This document shows, in pieces, positions 1-41,748 of a stretch of DNA of 41,748 bases. The notes beneath the pieces were generated by a model that made no database searches, was not told the DNA's origin, and saw nothing but the letters and a program-made list of their open reading frames with translations. Every line of letters starts with the position of its first letter. Within the stretch, counting starts at the first letter, position 1. The position numbers and the translations under genes were made by a program. Source of the DNA: a virus; the IMG/VR virus record IMGVR_UViG_3300009537_000054, positions 1 through 41,748 of that record, one strand, 5' to 3'.

Positions 1-70
1 CACTGCCTTAACCCGGAATAGCTCCGCATCGCCCCTCAGAAGCCACACAGGGCCGTTTGTGTCCGTACCC
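1..70. repeat. Direct terminal repeat, copy 1 (circular assembly overlap or terminal redundancy)
   Basis: nt 1..70 are identical (70/70) to nt 41679..41748, read directly. Confidence 0.97.
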
Positions 71-15195: not shown

Positions 15196-15462
15196 CTAAC
15201 TTCCCACCGCCTCAAGCGCGCCCATGGTCGCCTGCGGTTTGGCGCGACACGGTGGTGCCAGCGGGGCGGCGGCGAGGCCAGGGCCGCAATCGGGCCAGCT
15301 ACCGGGGATCGGCAGCGGGTCAGGCGTTGGTGCTGGGGCCGTTTGATCGGCAGCGGGCGCGCCATTCTTTCCGCAGGCCACTATTCCAAAACCAACCGGA
15401 AGCACGGCAGTGGTCAGCAGCGTGACGGCCCACAGCCAGCGCCAGTCTCTCCTTATCCTCAC
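15196..15462 (-). CDS. Proline-rich lipoprotein (88 aa, GTG start)
   Basis: GTG at 15462..15460 overlaps the upstream TGA (GTGA). N-terminus RIRRDWRWLWAVTLLTTAVLPVGFGIVAC has a basic n-region, a hydrophobic core and an I-V-A-C lipobox. The mature part is Pro-rich with 3 more Cys. Confidence 0.55.
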   Translation of the reverse strand: MRIRRDWRWLWAVTLLTTAVLPVGFGIVACGKNGAPAADQTAPAPTPDPLPIPGSWPDCGPGLAAAPLAPPCRAKPQATMGALEAVGS

Positions 15463-15980
15463 AAATTGTGAGACCCGATGCTGATCTCTGCCTGTAACAG
15501 CAGGAAGTCGCTCGCCGCCAATGTGGCGTTGACCGAATTGGTCAGGTTGTAGGCGATACCCTGTCCGCTGCTCGCATGATTCACACAGGCCGCTGAAGCC
15601 AATGCCACGCCGGTCAGGCCGTCGGTATTCCCTGCCCACGTCATGGCCAGAATCACCGTCATTTTCGACGTGGCGAGTGTTGCCGGTGCCTTGCGACTGA
15701 CTTCTCCGAATTGCAGGCCGGTGTTCCCCAAGGAGAAGGCGGTCGATACCGTGCCGATGGCCAGATACGCTATCCCGCTGGTGGTGACCCCGATGGCCCT
15801 TGATGCGAGCGCGTTCAGGCCGGTGGCGGTGACAATGTTCTTCGGGATGATGGTCTCGTCGATGGACCCATCCGCGCGCGTGATGCGCTTGCGCCACTTC
15901 ACGTTGAGCGGGATGCGGTCGTGTAGCGCGTCCTGGAATTCTGCCAGGAGGCGCGCTTCCTCAGTAATATTTGGATTCAT
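15459..15980 (-). CDS. Structural-module protein, possibly fibre/collar related
   Basis: 173 aa. The pattern IVTATGLNALASRAIG...IAYLAIGT...GNTGLQFGEVSRK is reminiscent of tail-collar fibre N-domains. This is a weak call. Confidence 0.35.
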   Translation of the reverse strand: MNPNITEEARLLAEFQDALHDRIPLNVKWRKRITRADGSIDETIIPKNIVTATGLNALASRAIGVTTSGIAYLAIGTVSTAFSLGNTGLQFGEVSRKAPATLATSKMTVILAMTWAGNTDGLTGVALASAACVNHASSGQGIAYNLTNSVNATLAASDFLLLQAEISIGSHNL

Positions 15981-18900
15981 AGTTTTGGGTCCTCTCTGTC
16001 ATGAGTTTCAGGAACAACTTTTCTGCGTGTTCGCGTGAGTAAAATCTGGCTGTGATGGGCGGCTGTCTCTCCGGGTGCGCCCCACCATTCAGCTTGCTGG
16101 CGTCCATCGTGAAACCGAAGTCGAAGCCCTCCCCGAGTATCTCCACGAGGGTTGAGTAGAAGCTCATATTGTCGGAATCGGTGATCATCCGCAGCTGGCC
16201 GGCGTCGAGCAGTTCACCCCAGATTGCTATCCCTGCCTTGGCGCGCTCGACCATGGCCTCGGTGACGTGCCCCCCGTTGGCCTCGGCTTCCCATCGGCAC
16301 ATCTGGGACAGGTCTCTTAACCACAGGAACTTCCCGAGGACGCGATCCGGGTACTTCTCCCGGTCCCTAACAAGCAGGCCGATGTTCCGCTCGAACCGTT
16401 TCCGGCGGACCTCTTCGGTGCTGTATCCGTAATGAGCGATGGTCACATCCCCCATGATGGTCGCGTGTCCGACGCCTTTGTTGATCTCGAGCTCAGGGTG
16501 TTCATGGACTACCCCGAAGAATTTGATGCCCTTACCATTACGGTAGAACCTTGATGGCAGGTCGGTTTTCATGATGCCAGCCGGCTCAACGCTGTAGTGA
16601 AGCTGCTTGATGGCATAAGCGTTGAACATATTCTCGCGGAGGTACTTCCTGACGTTCTCCGGGTGGAATAGCACCTCGTCGGCGTCGATCCAGAGTATCC
16701 AGTCGGCTTTAGCCTTGGCGGTACACTGATTCCTGGCCTCGTCGAATCCGATCTCCAAGGGTGATTTGATGTCGAACAGGAGGTCTTCCTTTGGAGAGAA
16801 CCCTTTGACGTACTTCGCCGCAATGGCCCGGGTCTCGTCCTTGGTGGTCTCGTCGACCGCGACAATGATCTCGCTGGCGATGTTCTTCACGGATTCCAGG
16901 CATCTGCCCAAGCTGTGCTCGGCGTCCTTGGCGATGATACAGACCGCGAGGGTTTGGCTCGGTGCCAGATATTTGAACTTTCGTGAATAGTCGATGCGCC
17001 CGCTTGGCTGGGTCGGCTTACCGAAAACCGCGATATAACTGCCGAGGGCGTCACCGTTCCGGTCTGTGCCTCCGGTGGCCAGGTTCACGTTAAACCCTGT
17101 GTGCATACCGAACAGGTCATGCAGGTCTTGTCTTTCAAGGTGATGGACGTGCGCCCTCCACGGCCAGTGTTCCCGGTAGCCTATCGCCTCCCAAGGGCCA
17201 AGTGGTGTGGTGGTGATAAACTTCCCGCCTTCCTTGAGGTACTTCCCGAGAGCATCGATCATCTCCCACGGTGCTTCGACGTGCTCAAGAACCTCGGCGA
17301 CGATGATGGCATCGAAGCTTTCTAGTGCAGGCGCTTCGTCGTCCCCGGCCACTTTAATAATGCCGACCTCAACGCTTCCGGTGATAAAAGTAGCGTTCCG
17401 TGTTCCGTCACTGTCAGCCCACTTTCGGGCTGTGGCGATATTGCTGGCGGCGATGTCGATTCCGATGAACTTGAGGTCTGGAAAGGCTTTCGCCAGATTG
17501 TTCGTATAGTGACCATGAGCGCACCCATAATCACAAACGACGCTACCAGCAGGGAGACTGCCAAGGTGACCGGCCACAGTAGCAAAACGGTTATTGTGCG
17601 TGCAATCTTCCGGCCCGTACTCAACTCCGCGCTGTTTCTCATAGTCGTAGTACCTCTCATAGTGTTCCTTCCAGGCGCGGTCGCGCGCGAAGGCGTAGCA
17701 CTCCTGCATCTCTTTCGCCGCGGTATTGTCCCCCGTGTGGTCGGTTGGGTGTTCTGCAGCGTACTTCTCGGCGGCGTAGTAGTCGCTCGTATGAATGAGG
17801 CTCTTTAAGACGGTCTCCGGGTTCTTCGTGCGTTCGGCGAACAGTTCTTCAATGTGCTTCTCGAAGCCCTCGGCGGCGATTGACCAGGCGAGCTTTACAC
17901 CAGCCCCGCGCTGTGCTGCGCGCATAACGTCAGGGCTAAGTAGCATGGGCCGCTCATCGCTATACTCCTCCGAAAATAAATCTACTACGGTTCCAACAAA
18001 AGACGCTTCATCGGCAACGCCGTTCTTTAGATTAATCAAATGCGAGCCGCTAAATTGGCACGTCTCAGGCAACGCACCAACGTGCGATGCGATGAACGGC
18101 AGGCCGGCTGCCATCGCTTCCATCGCCGTGATGCAGTTGTGGATAACGACTCCGCCAGCGATGAAATTATGCGTGCGTTCGACCTCCATATCGTACACAT
18201 CCTCATGTCCGCATGGCTCAACACTGACGACCTTGTGATTGAAGGCCGCACCCTTGGCCGCGAGGTTCGAGCGCTTCTTGGCAGCACGACTGTCGATCCA
18301 AGCCTGCCGCTCCTCTGGAGGCATGGCGTTGACCTTTTCCCACAGCTTGTCGCCGGCTTTACTTAGTGTCTGAATCCGCTCGGCACGGAAATCCGCATCG
18401 CCTTCCCATTTCTTGCGCCAGCCATTCACGTGTGCGCGCGCGGCATGCGGCGTCTTCACTAATCCACGGAACGTCTTCTTCGCGTGATCCGAAGGCGACA
18501 GCACTTGCAGGTTGTCCGGCATGTTGTTCAGCGGGTTCCCGTCGATATGATCGACGTGGTGGCCCTTCGGAATATCGCCATGGACGTATTCGGCGATGAC
18601 CCGATGCTCATGTGGCCAGCGGCCCGAACCGGTAGACACGGTAATCTGGGCATGCTTCTTCAGAGCCACCGCAGATTCGCCAGGCTGTAAGTCTTTCAAC
18701 TCGACCCAGCCGCGCTTGTACGTCAGCACCTTGTGGTCCGGAGTGGCACGCAGGCATGTCCCATCGTCCCAAAGGACCTTCCAGATTTCGCGATTCTTGC
18801 CTGTTTTTGCTACCCATTTCACCTGTGACAATATGAACTTCCCGTTTTCCTCGTCGTATGACCAGACAGGGAAACCGCTCTTGCCGACCAGTTCACTGAT

Positions 18901-19791
18901 CGGCACGCCGCGCGGGTACTTCGTATAATCACGCGGCATGTCGATGAGCGTATCGCCGACGCAACAGGAAACTTCTTCGAATTCAGAGGGGTACACAAGG
19001 GCATCACACTGCCTCATGGTGTCCGCCAACTGTTGCTTGGTCAGGCTACCCATGTTGGTGCAGTTCGGTAACTCCTCGATGCGCGAGTACAGATAGGCGT
19101 ACATATCCGCGAGGTGCGGCGGGTTGTTGTCGTAGTTACAGACATAGAGCCGGAAGCGCTTATCGATCTCCCAGAGCCTTTCCATGATCCCACCCGGGCG
19201 AACGTGGTGCGCCAATCCGCGCTCCGGTCGTGAGGTGTAGAGCAGGGCGATCTCGTCCTTAACTTTCGGCAGCTTGAATCGCGGTTTGCCTTGGAATAGG
19301 TTCAGGTCCACGCCGTTTGTCACGGTCTTAACGATCTCCGGAGCCAGTCCGTAGACCTCGCAGAGCTGTTTCTTGTGCCATTCACTGACACAGAATACCG
19401 CGTCGATATTCCAGAGGCCGGCGGCGATGGAGGGCTTCTGTCGGTGAAGGGCGAGGTCGTGCATCCAGGCGATATTCAGCTTGGCCTGGAACCTGTGGAC
19501 AAATGCGCCCGGCTGGCGCTGCATGATCAAGACGTCAGTCGGTGTGTTGCTGGCGTAGAAGTGAAACCGTTCCCCGAGGGGTGCCCGCTCGTTCAGGGGT
19601 CCTGCCCAGATGTATTTCACCCCGTCGAAGTTCCCCTCGTTCGGATCGTTGGTGAATATCGTTACCTTGTGTCCCCTGGCCGCGAGCTCCTTGGCGATGT
19701 AATAGGCCGCTGACTCGGATCCTCCGAGGGATTTGGTCTTGAGGGTGTCGCCGTTGAACGGCATGCCGCCACAATGAATGGTGATCAGCAT
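15961..19791 (-). CDS. GT4 glycosyltransferase (split by intein) / class I SAM methyltransferase / GT2 glycosyltransferase fusion protein
   Basis: 1276 aa. GT4 spans aa 1-275 plus 553-~650 (E-x7-E restored after intein removal, EAMAAGLPFIAS). MTase spans aa ~735-925 (VVCDYGCAHG, FDAIIVAEVLEHV; nt ~17017..17589). GT2 spans aa ~946-1135 (LAVCIIAKDAEHSL..., WILWIDADEV; nt ~16387..16956). Confidence 0.8.
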   Translation of the reverse strand: MLITIHCGGMPFNGDTLKTKSLGGSESAAYYIAKELAARGHKVTIFTNDPNEGNFDGVKYIWAGPLNERAPLGERFHFYASNTPTDVLIMQRQPGAFVHRFQAKLNIAWMHDLALHRQKPSIAAGLWNIDAVFCVSEWHKKQLCEVYGLAPEIVKTVTNGVDLNLFQGKPRFKLPKVKDEIALLYTSRPERGLAHHVRPGGIMERLWEIDKRFRLYVCNYDNNPPHLADMYAYLYSRIEELPNCTNMGSLTKQQLADTMRQCDALVYPSEFEEVSCCVGDTLIDMPRDYTKYPRGVPISELVGKSGFPVWSYDEENGKFILSQVKWVAKTGKNREIWKVLWDDGTCLRATPDHKVLTYKRGWVELKDLQPGESAVALKKHAQITVSTGSGRWPHEHRVIAEYVHGDIPKGHHVDHIDGNPLNNMPDNLQVLSPSDHAKKTFRGLVKTPHAARAHVNGWRKKWEGDADFRAERIQTLSKAGDKLWEKVNAMPPEERQAWIDSRAAKKRSNLAAKGAAFNHKVVSVEPCGHEDVYDMEVERTHNFIAGGVVIHNCITAMEAMAAGLPFIASHVGALPETCQFSGSHLINLKNGVADEASFVGTVVDLFSEEYSDERPMLLSPDVMRAAQRGAGVKLAWSIAAEGFEKHIEELFAERTKNPETVLKSLIHTSDYYAAEKYAAEHPTDHTGDNTAAKEMQECYAFARDRAWKEHYERYYDYEKQRGVEYGPEDCTHNNRFATVAGHLGSLPAGSVVCDYGCAHGHYTNNLAKAFPDLKFIGIDIAASNIATARKWADSDGTRNATFITGSVEVGIIKVAGDDEAPALESFDAIIVAEVLEHVEAPWEMIDALGKYLKEGGKFITTTPLGPWEAIGYREHWPWRAHVHHLERQDLHDLFGMHTGFNVNLATGGTDRNGDALGSYIAVFGKPTQPSGRIDYSRKFKYLAPSQTLAVCIIAKDAEHSLGRCLESVKNIASEIIVAVDETTKDETRAIAAKYVKGFSPKEDLLFDIKSPLEIGFDEARNQCTAKAKADWILWIDADEVLFHPENVRKYLRENMFNAYAIKQLHYSVEPAGIMKTDLPSRFYRNGKGIKFFGVVHEHPELEINKGVGHATIMGDVTIAHYGYSTEEVRRKRFERNIGLLVRDREKYPDRVLGKFLWLRDLSQMCRWEAEANGGHVTEAMVERAKAGIAIWGELLDAGQLRMITDSDNMSFYSTLVEILGEGFDFGFTMDASKLNGGAHPERQPPITARFYSREHAEKLFLKLMTERTQNYESKYY
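18136..18966 (-). mobile_element. Intein with HNH homing-endonuclease domain (277 aa, residues 276-552 of the host ORF)
   Basis: Begins CCVGDTLI, has the central motif HHVDHIDGNPLNNMPDNLQVLSPSDH, and ends GGVVIHN followed by Cys+1 (CITAMEAM). The codon positions were verified on the sequence. Confidence 0.8.
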
Positions 19792-20372: not shown

Positions 20373-21341
20373 TTACGCGGCACAACTCTGGACGAGGAAG
20401 CCGAAGCGCGCTCCGGTGATTTTCTCGGCCTGGTAGTAACCGACCTCGATGTCGTCGGTCTTGGTCTTGCTGTTGTACGGGTGACGTTCCACCTGCATGT
20501 TCGGGATGCCCGGTGCGCTGAGGCGATACGAGTACATGAAGGACGGGCGGTCGATACTCGGGGTCGGCGGCGCGTAGTACACCAGTACCGATGGTCCCCA
20601 GATGGCCCCGATGGTATTGCCGATGTTCTCTTCCCCGGTGTTCTTGAACATGCCGGCCACGTTGACACTCTCCATCTCGAACAGGTCCTTGGCTTGGCTG
20701 GTGTTCAAATAACCTCCACCGTTGTTCGTACCGAAGATGATATTTCGGACGTTCTTGTGGCGGCGGAAACCATCCCAAGCCTTGGCGCCGAAGATCATGC
20801 GGTTTGGACGGTAACCCGTCGCATAGCGCACGTTGTCGATGGCGGTATTCAGGTCCACCAGAGGATTACCGTCACCTTCGACGGTGCTCCAGATGGAGCT
20901 GACGGCGGCACTCGACCCCACGTTGGTGGTCGATGTCACCTGCAGGCTTACCCGGTTCTCCCAGTTCAGTTGCAACTTCTCGGTCAGGCGCAGTGCCTTT
21001 CCTTCAATCTCGCGGGTGGCATATACGGGGTCCGCATTGCTGCGGTCCTCTATGGTGACACCGTCTTGGAGAGCGTAGTTGTTGCAGTAGTACAGCTGTG
21101 AGCTGACGTCCGAGGTGTAGCGTTTGGCCTCGGTGCCCGGTGCACGGCGGTCATCCACTACTCTCCATCGGTCGCCCTGGCTGAACTCGATGATGGAGCC
21201 GGATTGTTTCATGACCGGCACGACTGGCGCGATCACGTCCGCGATCATCCCTTCCTGGCGATAATCGATGATGGTATTGGACAGCGGGAGGTCGAGATAG
21301 AGATCCCGGCCCACGGCTGCAAATCTGATCTTCTTGTTCAT
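20373..21341 (-). CDS. Major capsid protein (HK97-fold, gpE-like family)
   Basis: 322 aa. Start reset to ATG 21341 (AAGGAG RBS 7 nt upstream). It follows the protease/scaffold and decoration-like genes, and the sequence pattern resembles the gpE family. Confidence 0.8.
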   Translation of the reverse strand: MNKKIRFAAVGRDLYLDLPLSNTIIDYRQEGMIADVIAPVVPVMKQSGSIIEFSQGDRWRVVDDRRAPGTEAKRYTSDVSSQLYYCNNYALQDGVTIEDRSNADPVYATREIEGKALRLTEKLQLNWENRVSLQVTSTTNVGSSAAVSSIWSTVEGDGNPLVDLNTAIDNVRYATGYRPNRMIFGAKAWDGFRRHKNVRNIIFGTNNGGGYLNTSQAKDLFEMESVNVAGMFKNTGEENIGNTIGAIWGPSVLVYYAPPTPSIDRPSFMYSYRLSAPGIPNMQVERHPYNSKTKTDDIEVGYYQAEKITGARFGFLVQSCAA

Positions 21342-21351
21342 TGAGTTCTCC

Positions 21352-21732
21352 TTAGGGTCCGCTGGATACGCCAGTGGCGGCGAAATTGAAGAGGCCCTCG
21401 ACGGTGGCGCCGGAAGCCGCTGTGGCCAGTGCGCGCCCGCATGGAGCAACTGCCCCAACGGCCGTGATGAGGTAGCCAGAGGTAGTCACGATCAGACGTG
21501 CGCCGGCCGTAACGGCTGCTCCGGCAACGCCCTTCATGTGGCCTTCCCAACCGACCTGAGCGTCTTCACCGCTTTTCGGCTTGTTCTGCAACAGACCGAT
21601 AGCTACGGTTCCGGTAGCGGCGATGGTGCCACCGACGGCGACGGCCTTGTACTGGGCGCCCGTACCGCCGCCAGTATTGAGGTCGGCACCAGCGGCGAGC
21701 TGGATGCTTCTGAAATTACCTGTTCCGCTCAT
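21352..21732 (-). CDS. Head decoration-like protein (DUF2190-like)
   Basis: 126 aa, Gly/Ala-rich, immediately upstream of the capsid gene as is usual for DUF2190 proteins. Confidence 0.5.
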   Translation of the reverse strand: MSGTGNFRSIQLAAGADLNTGGGTGAQYKAVAVGGTIAATGTVAIGLLQNKPKSGEDAQVGWEGHMKGVAGAAVTAGARLIVTTSGYLITAVGAVAPCGRALATAASGATVEGLFNFAATGVSSGP

Positions 21733-27124: not shown

Positions 27125-27796
27125 TTACGCCGGAACCTCATGGTGGCAACTCGGACAAAGCGAGTAAGGCACGCTATCCATCTGACTGATGTTCTCATCC
27201 ACGGTCCCGAGCTTTCCGGTTCCGCCTCCGTCGAAGCAACAGGTCAGAACGTCTCCATTGCTCCCGATCATCGCCCATCCGTTCTGCAGCCACGGGCAGA
27301 CTTCTCTGACGGGTGTGCTCACTTCCCATTTAACCTGGCCTGCCCAGTCTACCGCTGAGATACTCGGGTCTGCCGAGATGCCGGCGAGGACTCCATATTT
27401 CTTGAGCAGGTTAACGGTTGGCCCGGCTTTCTCGGGTCGATGCAGTGATACCCAGACTCGCATCTGTGCGTAACGCATCGCCAAGGCGTGATCCTCTGTT
27501 ACGCCGACGCCGTTTGTTGCGAGGATCAGGTGACGCTTGTTTCCTATGGCTTCCCTCGCCTCAAGGCACCACTCCCCGAATTCAGGATGCATGGTGCTTT
27601 CACCGATCCCGCAGAGGTTGAGTTCCTGGCCTTGGGTGTTGTCTTCACAGAAGCGACTTACCCATCCGATTGCTTTTTCCCAAGTGCCCCGGCTCATGTG
27701 TTCCTTGGTTCTGGCCATTGTCGGGTGGACGCAATATCGGCATCGCAAGTTGCATCGACTGGTCATCTCGATCTGGTGGATGCTCTGGATTTTCAT
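27125..27796 (-). CDS. Radical SAM enzyme with C-terminal Cys-rich (twitch/SPASM-like) region, paralogue 1
   Basis: 223 aa from ATG 27796 (ATGA overlap). CNLRCRYC matches C-x3-C-x2-C. The C-terminus reads C...GWAMIGSNGDVLTCC...LGTV...LCPSCH. Confidence 0.75.
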   Translation of the reverse strand: MKIQSIHQIEMTSRCNLRCRYCVHPTMARTKEHMSRGTWEKAIGWVSRFCEDNTQGQELNLCGIGESTMHPEFGEWCLEAREAIGNKRHLILATNGVGVTEDHALAMRYAQMRVWVSLHRPEKAGPTVNLLKKYGVLAGISADPSISAVDWAGQVKWEVSTPVREVCPWLQNGWAMIGSNGDVLTCCFDGGGTGKLGTVDENISQMDSVPYSLCPSCHHEVPA

Positions 27797-28188
27797 GCAG
27801 TTACATTTACCGTAGCCGAAAAAGGTATTGGATGGCGTTCTGATGCTTTTGCTAGCAGAATCATCCACGCCTCACACCGTGCATCTTCCATCATGTCGTT
27901 CAATAGTTCCCGTCTATATTTTCTATACGGAGGCCATGTGTGCGGGAGGTACCCATCTTTAATTGACTTCGTTATTGCTGCAAGTTTGCCCAAAGGGTGA
28001 TCTTCGTAGAACTTATCTACTCCGAGCATATTCCATTTGAAATACGGTTTACGTTCTTTTCGTAATGATCTCCAGAACAGTTTACGCCTCAAGGCAGGCA
28101 ATGTGTGTAGTAACTTAGCAAGGTCTGCTGCGATAGCTTTGTACACAACCAACGCCTCTGGACTCTGTACGGAGGCCCATTCGCTCAT
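27793..28188 (-). CDS. Hypothetical protein inside the radical-SAM cassette
   Basis: 131 aa from ATG 28188, with ATGA overlaps on both sides. Basic and aromatic-rich, with no motif recognised. Confidence 0.55.
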   Translation of the reverse strand: MSEWASVQSPEALVVYKAIAADLAKLLHTLPALRRKLFWRSLRKERKPYFKWNMLGVDKFYEDHPLGKLAAITKSIKDGYLPHTWPPYRKYRRELLNDMMEDARCEAWMILLAKASERHPIPFSATVNVTA

Positions 28189-28361
28189 GGCGTCACCTTC
28201 ACGCACGATAGAGACGTCTGTGGCGCGCGATCATCGTAGTAGCAAATCACCCCGTACTGATCTTGTGGGTAGTGGTTCAGGTACGGATAACCGTAGTCTG
28301 ATGCTTCTGTTCCGCATCCTAGCAGGGCTATGGTTGCGATTAATGCGAGCGTGGTTTTCAT
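28185..28361 (-). CDS. Small lipoprotein / exported Tyr- and Cys-rich peptide (58 aa)
   Basis: ATG 28361 overlaps the rSAM-2 stop (ATGA). MKTTLALIATIALLGC has a classic L-L-G-C lipobox. The mature 42 aa contain 7 Tyr and 2 further Cys. Confidence 0.6.
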   Translation of the reverse strand: MKTTLALIATIALLGCGTEASDYGYPYLNHYPQDQYGVICYYDDRAPQTSLSCVKVTP

Positions 28362-29008
28362 GTTGGGACCCTCAAGTGGCACTTCGCACAAAGCGGGATC
28401 GGGTTCATCTCTGTCGGTTTGTTCGTATCATTCACGTTTCCTATGGGATAGAGGCCGTGGGCATCCATGCAACAATTAACGATGTCACCGTTCTGCAGGA
28501 CGGTTGCCCAACCCTGTGCTAAATATTGGCAGTCGTGTTCTGGCGCCAAGTTCGCCCATGTGACTTGCCCTGCCCAATCGAAGCCGCTGCTGACGAACTG
28601 GTGATTGACTTGAACCTTAATGCCGAGCTTCAAGCATCTGTCTACCGCCGGCCCCGCGACCTCTGGCCGGTGTGCGCTGACGTAGACTGTCGCGTCTACT
28701 TCCTTGATGGCTTTCAGGGCCTCATCTTTCAAAGCGATGCCGTTGGTAGCCAAGAGTATCCACGTCTCCGGCAGATAGGCCCTGGCGGTTCTGATCATCT
28801 CCGGGAATTCCGGGTGAAGTACCGCTTCGCCCATGCCGGTAAGAGATAGCTCTGGGCCTCCCAGCTGGCGCGTCCATCTGAGTGCGTTCTCGAAGGTCTC
28901 CTGATCCATGTCTTCCTTTGGCCTTTGGAGCTTCGGGTGTGGGCAATAACGGCAGGAAAGATTGCACCGTGATGATATTTCTATCTGATGGACGGTTGTT
29001 ATTCTCAT
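28358..29008 (-). CDS. Radical SAM enzyme with C-terminal Cys-rich (twitch/SPASM-like) region, paralogue 2
   Basis: 216 aa. It has CNLSCRYC and is colinear with paralogue 1 throughout (HQIE(M/I)(T/S)SRCNL..., HPEF, LATNG, HRPE.AGP, DWAGQV.W, NGD(V/I)..CC, LC..CH). Confidence 0.75.
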   Translation of the reverse strand: MRITTVHQIEISSRCNLSCRYCPHPKLQRPKEDMDQETFENALRWTRQLGGPELSLTGMGEAVLHPEFPEMIRTARAYLPETWILLATNGIALKDEALKAIKEVDATVYVSAHRPEVAGPAVDRCLKLGIKVQVNHQFVSSGFDWAGQVTWANLAPEHDCQYLAQGWATVLQNGDIVNCCMDAHGLYPIGNVNDTNKPTEMNPIPLCAKCHLRVPT

Positions 29009-41603: not shown

Positions 41604-41748
41604 TCAAAACCTGATACTGCCACCGATACCGACAAATCCGGCTCCTGATGTGTCGTATGTCCCAGTCAGCCCAAAGGCCACTGCCTTAACCCGGAATAGC
41701 TCCGCATCGCCCCTCAGAAGCCACACAGGGCCGTTTGTGTCCGTACCC
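41604..41748 (-). CDS. 3' part of the junction-spanning gene (ends ...GAGFVGIGGSIRF, stop TGA at 41604..41606)
   Basis: The minus-strand frame is contiguous with 1..456 through the repeat. The C-terminus resembles an outer-membrane beta-signal (G-x-x-I-x-F). Confidence 0.65.
   Translation of the reverse strand, partial: GTDTNGPVWLLRGDAELFRVKAVAFGLTGTYDTSGAGFVGIGGSIRF
41679..41748. repeat. Direct terminal repeat, copy 2
   Basis: Identical to nt 1..70. The unique genome length is therefore 41,678 bp. Confidence 0.97.

What the first reader, a model, noticed from the sequence alone, without database searches (positions are those of the whole stretch)
18136..18966. HNH-type intein inserted in the E-x7-E catalytic motif of a phage glycosyltransferase
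On the minus strand, residues 276-552 of the 15961..19791 ORF have the hallmarks of an intein. They begin C-C-V-G-D-T-L-I, the same spacing as the C-x-x-G-D-S-L-I block A of DnaB mini-inteins. They carry a complete HNH cassette (HHVDHIDGNPLNNMPDNLQVLSPSDH). They end ...THNFIAGGVVIHN, followed by a +1 Cys. Deleting these 277 aa fuses ...VYPSEFEEVS to CITAMEAMAAGLPFIAS. That recreates an E-x7-E signature (E-VSCITAM-E) and the EAMAxGxP helix typical of GT4 glycosyltransferases. The element therefore sits inside the catalytic motif, which is the classic intein insertion logic. Phage inteins are mostly known from terminase, polymerase, helicase, RNR and similar genes. I do not know of one described in a glycosyltransferase, so both the host gene and the insertion site look new.
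Basis: partly seen in the sequence, partly recalled or inferred. Interest (0 to 1): 0.85.

Follow-up and report, generated by a model that had tools for sequence, protein, structure and literature searches.

The report
HNH intein splitting a phage glycosyltransferase
A self-splicing, mobile protein insert (an intein carrying its own DNA-cutting enzyme) really does sit in the sugar-donor-binding motif of a phage glycosyltransferase; the intein is an ordinary type, but I found no published report of one in this kind of enzyme, although relatives turn out to be common in uncultivated phages.

Summary
Residues 276-552 of the 1276-aa minus-strand ORF (window 18136-18966) match Pfam Intein_splicing (84 bits) and HNH_3 (60 bits). 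All class 1 catalytic residues are present: Cys1, Thr75/His78, Asp259, His276-Asn277 and Cys+1. The AlphaFold model (pLDDT 87) superposes on DnaB mini-inteins.

Intein-free homologues at 61-72% identity read ...YP[ST]EFEEVS|CITAME... without interruption. The boundaries are therefore exact, and splicing would restore E273-x7-E281 of a retaining GT4 fold (MshA/BshA/PimA-like, pLDDT 95).

The host is a GT4-methyltransferase-GT2 fusion lying next to the capsid gene of a complete ~41.7-kb siphovirus-like genome.

The intein is not unique. Among 81 collected relatives, 35 (this one included) sit at this site. Another 13 sit 4 or 7 codons upstream in the same motif. Six homologous same-site inteins begin with Pro and carry Cys at block F:4, which resembles class 3 but without Trp B:12 or Thr G:5.

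I found no paper describing a glycosyltransferase intein.

Verdict: a real, probably active homing intein. It is a new member of a known kind in an undescribed host gene. The family around it is more interesting than this single copy.

The parts
15961..19791 (-). Precursor ORF, 1276 aa (143.5 kDa): GT4 (split by the intein) - SAM methyltransferase - GT2 with a SunS-like tail
   Evidence: ORF list; Pfam and NCBIfam domains; masses
18967..19791 (-). N-extein, aa 1-275: GT4 N-terminal Rossmann domain and the first part of the C-terminal domain, ending ...VYPSEFEEVS
   Evidence: PF13439 Glyco_transf_4 at aa 23-164; coordinates checked by translation
18136..18966 (-). Intein, 277 aa (31.2 kDa, pI 8.9), class 1 type
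   Evidence: PF14890 84 bits and PF13392 60 bits. AF2 pLDDT 87. Foldseek top hits are the NpuDnaB and SspDnaB mini-inteins. The segment is absent from homologues P0001-P0003.
18652..18966 (-). N-terminal splicing region (intein aa 1-105): block A Cys1 (C-C-V-G-D-T-L-I) and block B T75-P-D-H78
   Evidence: TIGR01445 match at aa 1-82; phmmer alignment to the NpuDnaB intein 4o1r; invariant columns G4, D5, T75, H78
18481..18606 (-). HNH endonuclease motif (intein aa 121-162), with H140, N148, N152 and H161
   Evidence: PF13392 HNH_3 at aa 121-162, E=2.3e-16. H140, N148 and H161 are invariant across 11 homologous inteins.
18247..18480 (-). Basic helical region after the HNH (intein aa 163-240), probably part of the DNA-binding module; the most variable part of the intein
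   Evidence: AF2 helices 173-239, pLDDT 58-89; variable and indel-rich in the alignment
18136..18246 (-). C-terminal splicing region (intein aa 241-277): block F VYD259MEVERTH266NF and block G GGVVIH276N277
   Evidence: TIGR01443 match; alignment to 4o1r residues 109-142; residues listed
18133..18135 (-). +1 Cys codon (precursor Cys553), the C-extein nucleophile. It is the native residue of this GT subfamily, at the position of the conserved Gly of the GT4 E-x-F-G motif.
   Evidence: Cys at this position in 72 of 77 regex-matched homologues that lack an intein; alignment to MshA 3c4q
17746..18135 (-). C-extein, rest of the GT4 domain (precursor aa 553-682), beginning CITAMEAMAAGLPFIAS
   Evidence: PF13692 and PF00534 matches start at aa 553-554. 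The spliced GT4 model has pLDDT 95 and matches MshA, BshA and PimA.
17086..17559 (-). SAM-dependent methyltransferase domain of the same polypeptide (aa 745-902)
   Evidence: PF13489 at 6.3e-18 and PF13847 at 2e-17
16537..16944 (-). GT2 glycosyltransferase domain (aa 950-1085); the SunS-like match extends to aa 1161
   Evidence: PF00535 at 2.3e-15; TIGR04195 SunS-family match at 6.6e-14, below its cut-off

Best explanation
Window 18136-18966 (-) encodes a full-length class 1 intein with an in-frame HNH homing endonuclease. It sits between Ser275 and Cys276 (spliced numbering) of the E-x7-E nucleotide-sugar-binding motif of a phage GT4 glycosyltransferase.

Proposed mechanism (every step is inferred from sequence and from established intein chemistry; none was shown here):
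1. The 143.5-kDa precursor is translated with the GT4 C-terminal Rossmann domain interrupted, and presumably inactive.
2. Cys1 (precursor Cys276) undergoes an N-S acyl shift, assisted by block B Thr75/His78 and block F Asp259.
3. Cys+1 (Cys553) attacks the thioester to form the branched intermediate.
4. Asn277 cyclises, helped by His276 and His266. An S-N shift then yields the 112.3-kDa GT4-methyltransferase-GT2 enzyme with E273-VSCITAM-E281 restored, plus a free 31.2-kDa basic intein.
5. In mixed infections, the HNH domain of the free intein nicks or cuts the intein-less allele of related phages near ...GAAGTTTCC|TGCATCACGGCGATGGA... Repair from the intein-bearing copy spreads the element (homing).

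The host enzyme lies directly downstream of the major capsid gene. It most likely makes or attaches a methylated glycan, perhaps on virion proteins. That part is the weakest inference.
For: Intein identity:
- Pfam and NCBIfam hits are above their cut-offs.
- All catalytic residues are present.
- The AF2 model has pLDDT 87. The Hint core matches NpuDnaB 4o1r (TM 0.85 on the target, rmsd 3.2 A), and the HNH-helical module is inserted between blocks B and F.

Exact boundaries and optional presence:
- Intein-free homologues P0001 (72% identity), P0002 (70%) and P0003 (61%; a 42-kb contig with the same portal-capsid-GT4-GT2-tail order) read EFEEVS|CITAME uninterrupted.
- Only 3 of the 120 best homologues carry an intein.
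- The 80 best of 333 IMG/VR relatives are all uninterrupted, although one of the two scan patterns spanned the junction and favoured such alleles.

Host motif:
- The spliced sequence aligns across the junction to MshA-type GT4 enzymes.
- It folds as GT-B with pLDDT 95, with the junction at the N-cap of helix 277-285.
- The structural neighbours are MshA, BshA and PimA.

A mobile-element life cycle is visible in relatives:
- Full HNH inteins: P0121-P0127, L172.
- An HNH-less derivative at the same site: L171.
- A 145-aa mini-intein: P0128.
- Empty sites also occur.

The intein's codon usage matches its host gene (CAI-like 0.70 vs 0.72 and 0.69). That fits long residence or exchange among similar phages.
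Against: - No experiment supports this. Splicing, endonuclease activity and homing are all inferred.
- No near-identical intein-free allele of this particular phage was found. The best is 72% identical at protein level, with no megablast hit in INPHARED. Recent homing therefore cannot be shown.
- The closest inteins are only 55% identical.
- An intact HNH motif does not prove an active nuclease.
- The glycosyltransferase's substrate is unknown.
Confidence: 0.8

Rival explanations
1. The intein still splices but is no longer mobile. Its HNH nuclease is inactive or has lost its target, so the element is simply inherited vertically with the gene.
For: Codon usage and GC3 cannot be told apart from the host gene. 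No close intein-free sister allele was found. Relatives show HNH decay (L171; P0128). Intein-to-intein and extein-to-extein identities between the window and P0054-type proteins are similar (about 30-37%), which is compatible with co-divergence.
Against: The HNH motif residues H140, N148 and H161 are invariant, and N152 nearly so, across 11 diverged homologues. The HNH_3 score is high. The distribution among homologues is sporadic, 3 of 120. In the NJ tree, inteins at different insertion sites interleave, which requires movement.
Confidence: 0.25
2. Splicing is conditional. The intein acts as a post-translational switch, for example a redox- or metal-sensitive one using Cys1, Cys2 and Cys+1, that delays activation of the glycosyltransferase during infection.
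For: Many class 1 inteins at this site, including the window's, begin Cys-Cys and have Cys+1. Conditional splicing through Cys chemistry is documented for DnaB inteins (abstracts of PMC6195587 and PMC7360933, listed).
Against: There is no direct evidence. Cys+1 is the native residue of the GT subfamily whether or not an intein is present. Most homologues lack the intein entirely, so no regulatory role is required. Several site-0 inteins have Val, Leu or Ala at position 2.
Confidence: 0.1
3. The insert is a dead, non-splicing remnant. The GT4 domain is inactivated, and the protein functions only through its methyltransferase and GT2 domains.
For: Nothing positive. The only support is that splicing was not tested, and that a capsid-adjacent glycosylation gene may be dispensable, which would relax selection for splicing.
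Against: All splicing residues are intact (Cys1, Thr75, His78, Asp259, His266, His276, Asn277, Cys+1). The 831-nt segment is an open in-frame reading with normal codon usage. The flanking GT4 residues are fully conserved relative to intein-free homologues.
Confidence: 0.06
4. It is not an intein but another Hint-family element (a bacterial intein-like BIL domain), or a free-standing HNH gene or intron fused by a mis-called ORF.
For: Foldseek also lists BIL and hedgehog Hint domains among the weaker matches (ranks 27, 31, 41, 50).
Against: The element has a canonical His-Asn|Cys C-terminal junction and Cys1. It sits at a conserved active-site motif, and the empty-site alleles are precise. There is one continuous reading frame with no stops. 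The best sequence and structure matches are true inteins.
Confidence: 0.02

Closest known systems
Cyanobacterial DnaB mini-inteins (NpuDnaB 4o1r, SspDnaB 1mi8/6frh)
   Same: They are the best sequence matches (phmmer 1.4e-13) and structure matches (Foldseek 2.8e-09; TM 0.85 on the target) to the splicing domain. Blocks A, B, F and G are in the same order, with Cys1 and His-Asn.
   Different: They are mini-inteins without an endonuclease and sit in the DnaB helicase. The window's intein carries an HNH plus helical module of about 135 aa between blocks B and F, and its host is a glycosyltransferase.
Phage HNH-type inteins in ribonucleotide reductase, terminase, portal and polymerase genes (for example the Dickeya LIMEstone-like NrdA inteins and the Lactobacillus phage CL2 terminase intein)
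   Same: The architecture is the same: a Hint domain with an in-frame HNH_3. The tblastn matches (4e-13 to 4e-14) are to the intein part only. Many IMG/VR relatives at 25-35% identity lie in proteins whose flanks look like portal and RNR sequences, judged by eye without a family search. In-frame HNH inteins are described as a rare, phage-associated type (bioRxiv 10.1101/2025.01.02.630785).
   Different: The host gene and insertion site differ. None of the 19 host genes listed for about 800 actinobacteriophage inteins is a glycosyltransferase. Those hosts are DNA-metabolism or virion proteins.
Class 3 inteins (mycobacteriophage Bethlehem DnaB, Msm/Mle DnaB-1, Bvi IcmO)
   Same: Six inteins homologous to the window's, at the identical GT4 site (P0054, P0057, P0082, P0230, P0247, L170), lack an N-terminal nucleophile (Pro1) and have Cys at block F:4. 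Those are the two core class 3 traits (PMC2807308 and PMC5222942).
   Different: The window's own intein is class 1 (Cys1, Asp at F:4). The Pro1 relatives lack Trp B:12 and Thr G:5, and they have Cys+1 instead of Ser or Thr. They therefore do not meet the published WCT signature.
Retaining GT4 glycosyltransferases MshA, BshA and PimA
   Same: The spliced N-terminal 405 aa fold as GT-B (pLDDT 95). Foldseek E-values are 1.7e-18 to 4e-16 against 3c4q, 6n1x and 2gej. The E-x7-E motif aligns across the splice junction.
   Different: Sequence identity is only 16-18%. The conserved Gly of E-x-F-G is Cys in this phage subfamily. The domain is fused to a methyltransferase and a GT2, and the substrate is unknown.

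Membership tests
Intein (class 1, standard) | In-frame insertion in a conserved site of a host protein, precisely absent from homologues | tested here: met
   P0001, P0002 and P0003 read EFEEVS|CITAME without the 277 aa. Only 3 of the 120 best homologues carry an insert.
Intein (class 1, standard) | Hint fold with blocks A, B, F and G | tested here: met
   PF14890 at 84.4 bits against a cut-off of 35.8. TIGR01445 and TIGR01443 are above their cut-offs. AF2 pLDDT is 87, and Foldseek hits to the DnaB, RecA and DnaE inteins have probability 1.00.
Intein (class 1, standard) | Cys or Ser at position 1; block B Thr-x-x-His; block F Asp (F:4); C-terminal His-Asn; Cys, Ser or Thr at +1 | tested here: met
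   C1, T75-P-D-H78, D259, H276-N277 and Cys553 (+1)
Intein (class 1, standard) | Autocatalytic protein splicing that yields a ligated extein and a free intein | not testable with these tools
   This needs expression followed by western blot or mass spectrometry. The predicted products are 112.3 and 31.2 kDa from a 143.5-kDa precursor.
HNH homing endonuclease (intein-borne) | HNH (beta-beta-alpha-metal) motif with its conserved His, Asn and His | tested here: met
   PF13392 at 59.6 bits against a cut-off of 24.8, at aa 121-162. H140, N148 and H161 are invariant and N152 nearly invariant. The AF2 strands and helix at 137-165 have pLDDT 93-94.
HNH homing endonuclease (intein-borne) | Site-specific cleavage of the empty allele and biased inheritance (homing) | not testable with these tools
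   The evidence is indirect only. Distribution is sporadic, HNH-less and mini derivatives exist, and related inteins occupy shifted sites.
Class 3 intein | Non-nucleophilic residue 1, with Trp B:12, Cys F:4 and Thr G:5 (the WCT triplet) | tested here: not met
   The window's intein has Cys1, Val at B:12 (H78-K-V), Asp at F:4 and Ile at G:5. The definition comes from PMC2807308 and PMC5222942.
Glycosyltransferase family GT4 (GT-B fold, retaining) - host protein | Two Rossmann-like domains (GT-B) with Glyco_transf_4 at the N-terminus and Glycos_transf_1 at the C-terminus | tested here: met
   PF13439 at 51.3 bits over aa 23-164. The PF13692 and PF00534 fragments resume immediately after the intein. 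The spliced model has pLDDT 95 and pTM 0.91, and its top structural hits are MshA, BshA and PimA.
Glycosyltransferase family GT4 (GT-B fold, retaining) - host protein | E-x7-E motif in the C-terminal domain | tested here: met
   After splicing, E273-VSCITAM-E281. E281 is invariant and E273 nearly invariant in 40 homologues. The motif aligns to PS-FNESFGLVAMEA of MshA 3c4q.
Glycosyltransferase family GT4 (GT-B fold, retaining) - host protein | Glycosyl transfer from a nucleotide sugar; identity of donor and acceptor | not testable with these tools
   There are no close characterised relatives. Identity to solved GT4 enzymes is 16-18%.
Bacterial intein-like (BIL) domain | A Hint domain in non-conserved positions of variable proteins, usually without a canonical His-Asn/+1 nucleophile pair; it cleaves rather than splices | tested here: not met
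   The element has a canonical HN|C junction, lies in an invariant active-site motif, and has precise empty alleles. BIL structures are only weak Foldseek matches. The BIL definition is from general knowledge.

The most novel reading that the evidence does not exclude
The window's intein belongs to a large, undescribed family of HNH inteins that has colonised the E-x7-E motif of phage GT-B glycosyltransferases. Within this one family there are two kinds of natural series.

(a) Insertion-point shifts. Closely related inteins sit at three points, 0, -4 and -7 codons. In one case nearly identical host proteins carry different inteins at 0 and -4. One -4 intein is nested inside a well-supported site-0 clade.

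(b) A catalytic series at a single insertion site. The states are Cys1/Asp-F4 (the window), Cys1/Asn-F4 and Pro1/Cys-F4. A Cys1/Cys-F4 state occurs at the neighbouring -4 site.

If the Pro1/Cys-F4 members splice through the block F cysteine without Trp B:12 or Thr G:5, they would be natural evidence that class 3-type splicing arose by divergence from class 1 inteins. That would argue against the separate-origin (convergence) proposal of Beyer et al. 2020 (PMC7664689). It would also provide a ready set of sequences for testing the transition.
Probability: 0.4. Interest if true: 0.75.

Novelty: new member of a known kind. Interest (0 to 1): 0.55.

Why it matters
Known inteins are concentrated in replication, repair, nucleotide-metabolism and, in phages, packaging or virion genes. 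A glycosyltransferase host extends that range to a sugar-nucleotide-binding motif in what is probably an accessory virion-modification enzyme. It also shows that the preference of inteins for active sites holds there too.

In practical terms, annotation pipelines currently call these proteins 'glycosyltransferase' or 'hypothetical' and miss the intein.

The family around this copy has three adjacent insertion points, and it has class 1 and Pro1/Cys-F4 forms at the same site. That offers a compact natural system for two open questions: how inteins change insertion site, and whether class 3 splicing evolved from class 1. The Cys+1 context and the small HNH module could also interest protein engineers.

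Tried and rejected
- Megablast of the gene against 50,697 phage records found no match. tblastn found only intein-part or single-domain hits below 35% identity.
- The exact-sequence lookup of the precursor found no record, so the source of the window stays unknown.
- The IMG/VR scan with the intein profile returned HNH inteins whose flanks look like portal, RNR and other proteins, and none in a GT motif. That scan was therefore uninformative about glycosyltransferase inteins.
- The IMG/VR scan with the GT4 profile returned 80 uninterrupted alleles. One of its two patterns spanned the junction, which biases it towards empty sites.
- The junction DNA pattern HN|C-x-x-A-M-E in 185,579 representative genomes gave 32 matches. 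All are chance matches, and none has an intein block G upstream. I found no such intein in cellular genomes with this pattern.
- The alternative boundary, with the intein starting at the second Cys, was rejected. It would leave EEVSC-CITAME, one residue longer than every intein-free homologue, and it would put block A out of register.
- The Biopython bootstrap NJ run timed out and was replaced by my own NJ with 200 bootstraps. Deep nodes are poorly supported, so the position of the Pro1 clade relative to class 1 GT inteins is unresolved.
It was rebuilt as A3.
- Tori & Perler 2011, the paper that expanded the class 3 definition, is not held in the library.
- The metagenome-contig scan was not used, because the evidence was already sufficient.

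Full report
**1. The observation**

The minus-strand ORF 15961..19791 encodes 1276 aa. Window 18136-18966 (-) translates without stops to 277 aa, CCVGDTLIDM...THNFIAGGVVIHN, and the following codon is Cys.

On these 277 aa alone the domain matches are strong.
- Pfam Intein_splicing: E=9.8e-24, 84.4 bits (cut-off 35.8).
- Pfam HNH_3: E=2.3e-16, 59.6 bits (cut-off 24.8).
- NCBIfam intein_Nterm and intein_Cterm both pass their cut-offs. The other NCBIfam hits are the intein parts of intein-containing DnaB, RtcB, radical-SAM and RecA models.

**2. Anatomy of the intein**

In intein numbering the catalytic residues are as follows.
- Block A: Cys1.
- Block B: Thr75-Pro-Asp-His78.
- HNH motif: His140, Asn148, Asn152, His161.
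- Block F: Asp259 (F:4) and His266.
- Block G: His276-Asn277, followed by Cys+1.

An AlphaFold2 model built on 11 homologous inteins has mean pLDDT 87. It shows a beta-rich Hint core formed by residues 1-105 and 241-277. An HNH unit (137-165) and three long helices (173-239) are inserted between blocks B and F.

Foldseek against the PDB puts the NpuDnaB and SspDnaB mini-inteins first (E about 2e-09; TM 0.85 on the target; rmsd 3.2 A for 4o1r). The RecA, NrdJ-1, DnaX and DnaE inteins follow. phmmer against the PDB agrees (4o1r, 1.4e-13).

The intein has Cys1 and Asp at F:4, and it has no Trp B:12 or Thr G:5. It is therefore a standard class 1 intein, not class 2 or class 3. The class definitions are from PMC2807308 and PMC5222942.

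**3. Boundaries and host motif**

I searched with the spliced N-terminal 405 aa. The search returned intein-free homologues covering 100% of the query at 72%, 70% and 61% identity (P0001, P0002, P0003). All three read ...QCDALVYP[ST]EFEEVSCITAME[AS]MAAGLPFI... without interruption, at both protein and DNA level. The splice junction is thus fixed at Ser275|Cys276 (spliced numbering).

Starting the intein at the second Cys instead would leave one extra residue and put block A out of register, so that alternative is rejected.

In a 40-sequence alignment of homologues, E281 is invariant and E273, S275 and C276 are nearly invariant. The motif is E273-VSCITAM-E281.

phmmer aligns the spliced sequence straight across the junction to MshA-type GT4 enzymes (7qsg, 3c4q/3c48). 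The +1 Cys falls where GT4 enzymes usually have the Gly of E-x-F-G.

The AlphaFold2 model of the spliced domain has pLDDT 95 and pTM 0.91. It places the junction at the N-cap of helix 277-285, just after strand 264-267. Its best structural neighbours are the retaining GT4 enzymes MshA, BshA and PimA (E from 1.7e-18 to 4e-16).

The +1 Cys is native to this subfamily. It is present in 72 of 77 regex-matched intein-free homologues.

**4. Genomic context**

The first 70 nt of the window repeat at its end, so the contig is a closed genome of about 41.68 kb. It has no tRNA genes.

Neighbouring genes are as follows.
- Large terminase, portal, prohead protease and major capsid protein lie upstream.
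- Tail genes and the tape-measure gene lie downstream.
- An Erf/exonuclease recombination module and an O-like replication initiator lie elsewhere in the genome.

The host polypeptide is a GT4-SAM methyltransferase-GT2 fusion, with a weak SunS-like match in its tail.

The same GT4/GT2/methyltransferase module lies next to the capsid gene in other phage contigs. L001 is a related intein-free 42-kb contig with the same gene order. L174 has an SU10-type capsid protein. I infer a role in making or attaching a methylated glycan, possibly on virion proteins. This is plausible but untested.

**5. How it most likely works**

The mechanism below is inferred from established intein chemistry.
1. The 143.5-kDa precursor is inactive as a GT4.
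2. Cys1 forms a thioester.
3. Cys+1 attacks it, and Asn277 cyclises.
4. The products are the 112.3-kDa enzyme with E-x7-E restored and a free 31.2-kDa basic intein (pI 8.9).
5. The HNH domain of the free intein then targets intein-less alleles in co-infecting relatives (homing).

Several observations support mobility.
- The distribution is sporadic: 3 of the 120 best homologues carry an intein, and the 80 best of 333 IMG/VR relatives are uninterrupted.
- Several stages of the homing cycle are seen in relatives. There are full HNH inteins (P0121-P0127, L172), an HNH-less derivative at the same site (L171), a 145-aa mini-intein (P0128) and empty sites.

The intein's codon usage equals that of its host gene. 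The copy is therefore not a recent import from a compositionally different donor.

**6. The wider family (outside the window)**

The closest inteins, at 55% identity over the full length, are P0121-P0123. They sit in short Glycos_transf_1-type proteins. They lie 4 codons (THF|[C/S]EI...) or 7 codons (YP|C.F.EI...) upstream of the window's site, in the same motif.

P0122 and P0124 have nearly identical host proteins but carry different inteins, at -4 and at 0.

A profile search of 1.84 billion representative proteins gave 1832 hits at E<=1e-30. I collected 81 inteins: 66 representatives whose matched stretch covered the whole profile, the 13 from earlier searches (the window included), and L170 and L171. 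Their insertion sites break down as follows.

| Site | Inteins |
|---|---|
| 0 (the window's site) | 35 |
| -4 (counting P0128) | 9 |
| -7 | 4 |
| Other host proteins | 33 |

Pfam confirms that seven of the long hosts carry GT1, GT2 and/or methyltransferase domains.

In a rough NJ tree with 200 bootstraps:
- the window groups with P0150 (87%);
- the -4 intein P0222 is nested in a 97%-supported clade of site-0 inteins that begin CCHPDT;
- the Pro1 inteins form one clade (83%);
- deep nodes are unresolved.

Six same-site inteins begin with Pro and have Cys at F:4: P0054, P0057, P0082, P0230, P0247 and L170. They have Ile, Ala or Val at B:12, Val at G:5, and Cys+1. P0057 occurs on 10 contigs from several samples, so Pro1 is not a sequencing error. 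The P0054 intein is homologous to the window's intein over its full length (BLASTP E=6e-36).

P0162 (site -4) has both Cys1 and Cys at F:4. Several site-0 inteins have Asn at F:4.

Beyer et al. 2020 argued that class 3 inteins may have a separate origin. Their reasons were that grafting WCT onto a class 1 intein failed, and that the required simultaneous changes seemed improbable (PMC7664689). This family could test that proposal directly. Whether the Pro1 forms use Cys F:4 is not known.

**7. Novelty**

My full-text searches found no paper describing an intein in a glycosyltransferase. Specifically:
- the 2025 actinobacteriophage survey lists 19 host genes for about 800 inteins, and none is a GT;
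- the main text of Novikova et al. 2016 does not mention glycosyl enzymes.

The junction DNA pattern found no such intein in 185,579 representative cellular genomes. It did find three in IMG/VR.

The element is an ordinary kind of intein (class 1, HNH) in a host gene and site that appear undescribed in the literature. It is abundant, but unannotated, in environmental phage data.

**8. Verdict**

This is a new member of a known kind.

Interest is moderate (0.55). The single copy is unsurprising to an intein specialist. The family it reveals is worth following up, because of its new host enzyme, its three adjacent insertion points, and its class 1 and Pro1/Cys-F4 forms at one site.

Noticed in passing
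window 1-70 and 41679-41748: The first 70 nt are repeated exactly at the end of the window. The contig is therefore a circularly closed, complete phage genome of about 41.68 kb. No tRNA genes were found.
   Followed up: partly
window 15961-19791 (-) with neighbours 20373-21458 (capsid) and 15459-15980; loci L001 10001-13050 and L174 6226-11314: A GT4 / methyltransferase / GT2 module lies directly downstream of the major capsid gene. The same arrangement is seen in unrelated phage contigs, including one with an SU10-type capsid. The GT2 part weakly resembles the peptide S-glycosyltransferase SunS. This suggests a virion or protein glycosylation module; the substrate is unknown.
   Followed up: partly
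proteins P0121-P0128, P0139, P0142, P0145, P0148, P0151, P0160, P0162, P0185, P0222 (metagenomic; not in the window): Closely related HNH inteins occupy three insertion points within 7 codons of the same GT motif: YP|C, YPxxF|[C/S]E and E(I/V)x|C(I/L)(T/S). P0122 and P0124 have nearly identical hosts with inteins at -4 and 0. P0222 (-4) is nested in a site-0 clade. This looks like repeated shifting of the insertion site.
   Followed up: partly
proteins P0054, P0057, P0082, P0230, P0247 and locus L170 (about 900-1770): Homologous inteins at exactly the window's site begin with Pro and have Cys at block F:4 (class 3-like). They lack Trp B:12 and Thr G:5, and they have Cys+1. P0162 and P0187 have both Cys1 and Cys at F:4. 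L172, P0150, P0184, P0186 and P0200 have Asn at F:4. These may be natural intermediates between class 1 and class 3 chemistry.
   Followed up: partly
proteins P0131 (aa 1075-1380) and P0147 (aa 1154-1307); equivalent window positions are ...AYAIKQ|LHYSVE... and ...KFFG|VVHEHPE... in the GT2 domain (about window 16500-16650): Two homologues of the same multi-domain enzyme carry a second intein inside the GT2 domain, at two different sites. The whole enzyme family therefore appears to be an intein hot-spot. The window's GT2 domain is uninterrupted.
   Followed up: no
locus L171 (IMG/VR 3300025313_000342) and protein P0128: Derivatives have lost the HNH domain. One is a 193-aa intein at the same site in a same-architecture enzyme, and the other is a 145-aa mini-intein at site -4. 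Both are consistent with the degeneration stage of a homing cycle.
   Followed up: partly
window 27125-27868 (-) and 28358-29008 (-): Two nearby ORFs both match the same part (positions ~41-160) of a phage radical-SAM family profile (phrog_1802). They may be paralogues or a disrupted gene. The related contig L001 also has a radical-SAM gene near its terminase.
   Followed up: no
locus L001 10001-13050: In the related intein-free 42-kb contig, the GT4 ORF (P0003, 562 aa) ends in a low-complexity tail and is followed by a separate 433-aa GT2 ORF. This is probably a frameshift or assembly error splitting what is a single fusion protein in the window.
   Followed up: no
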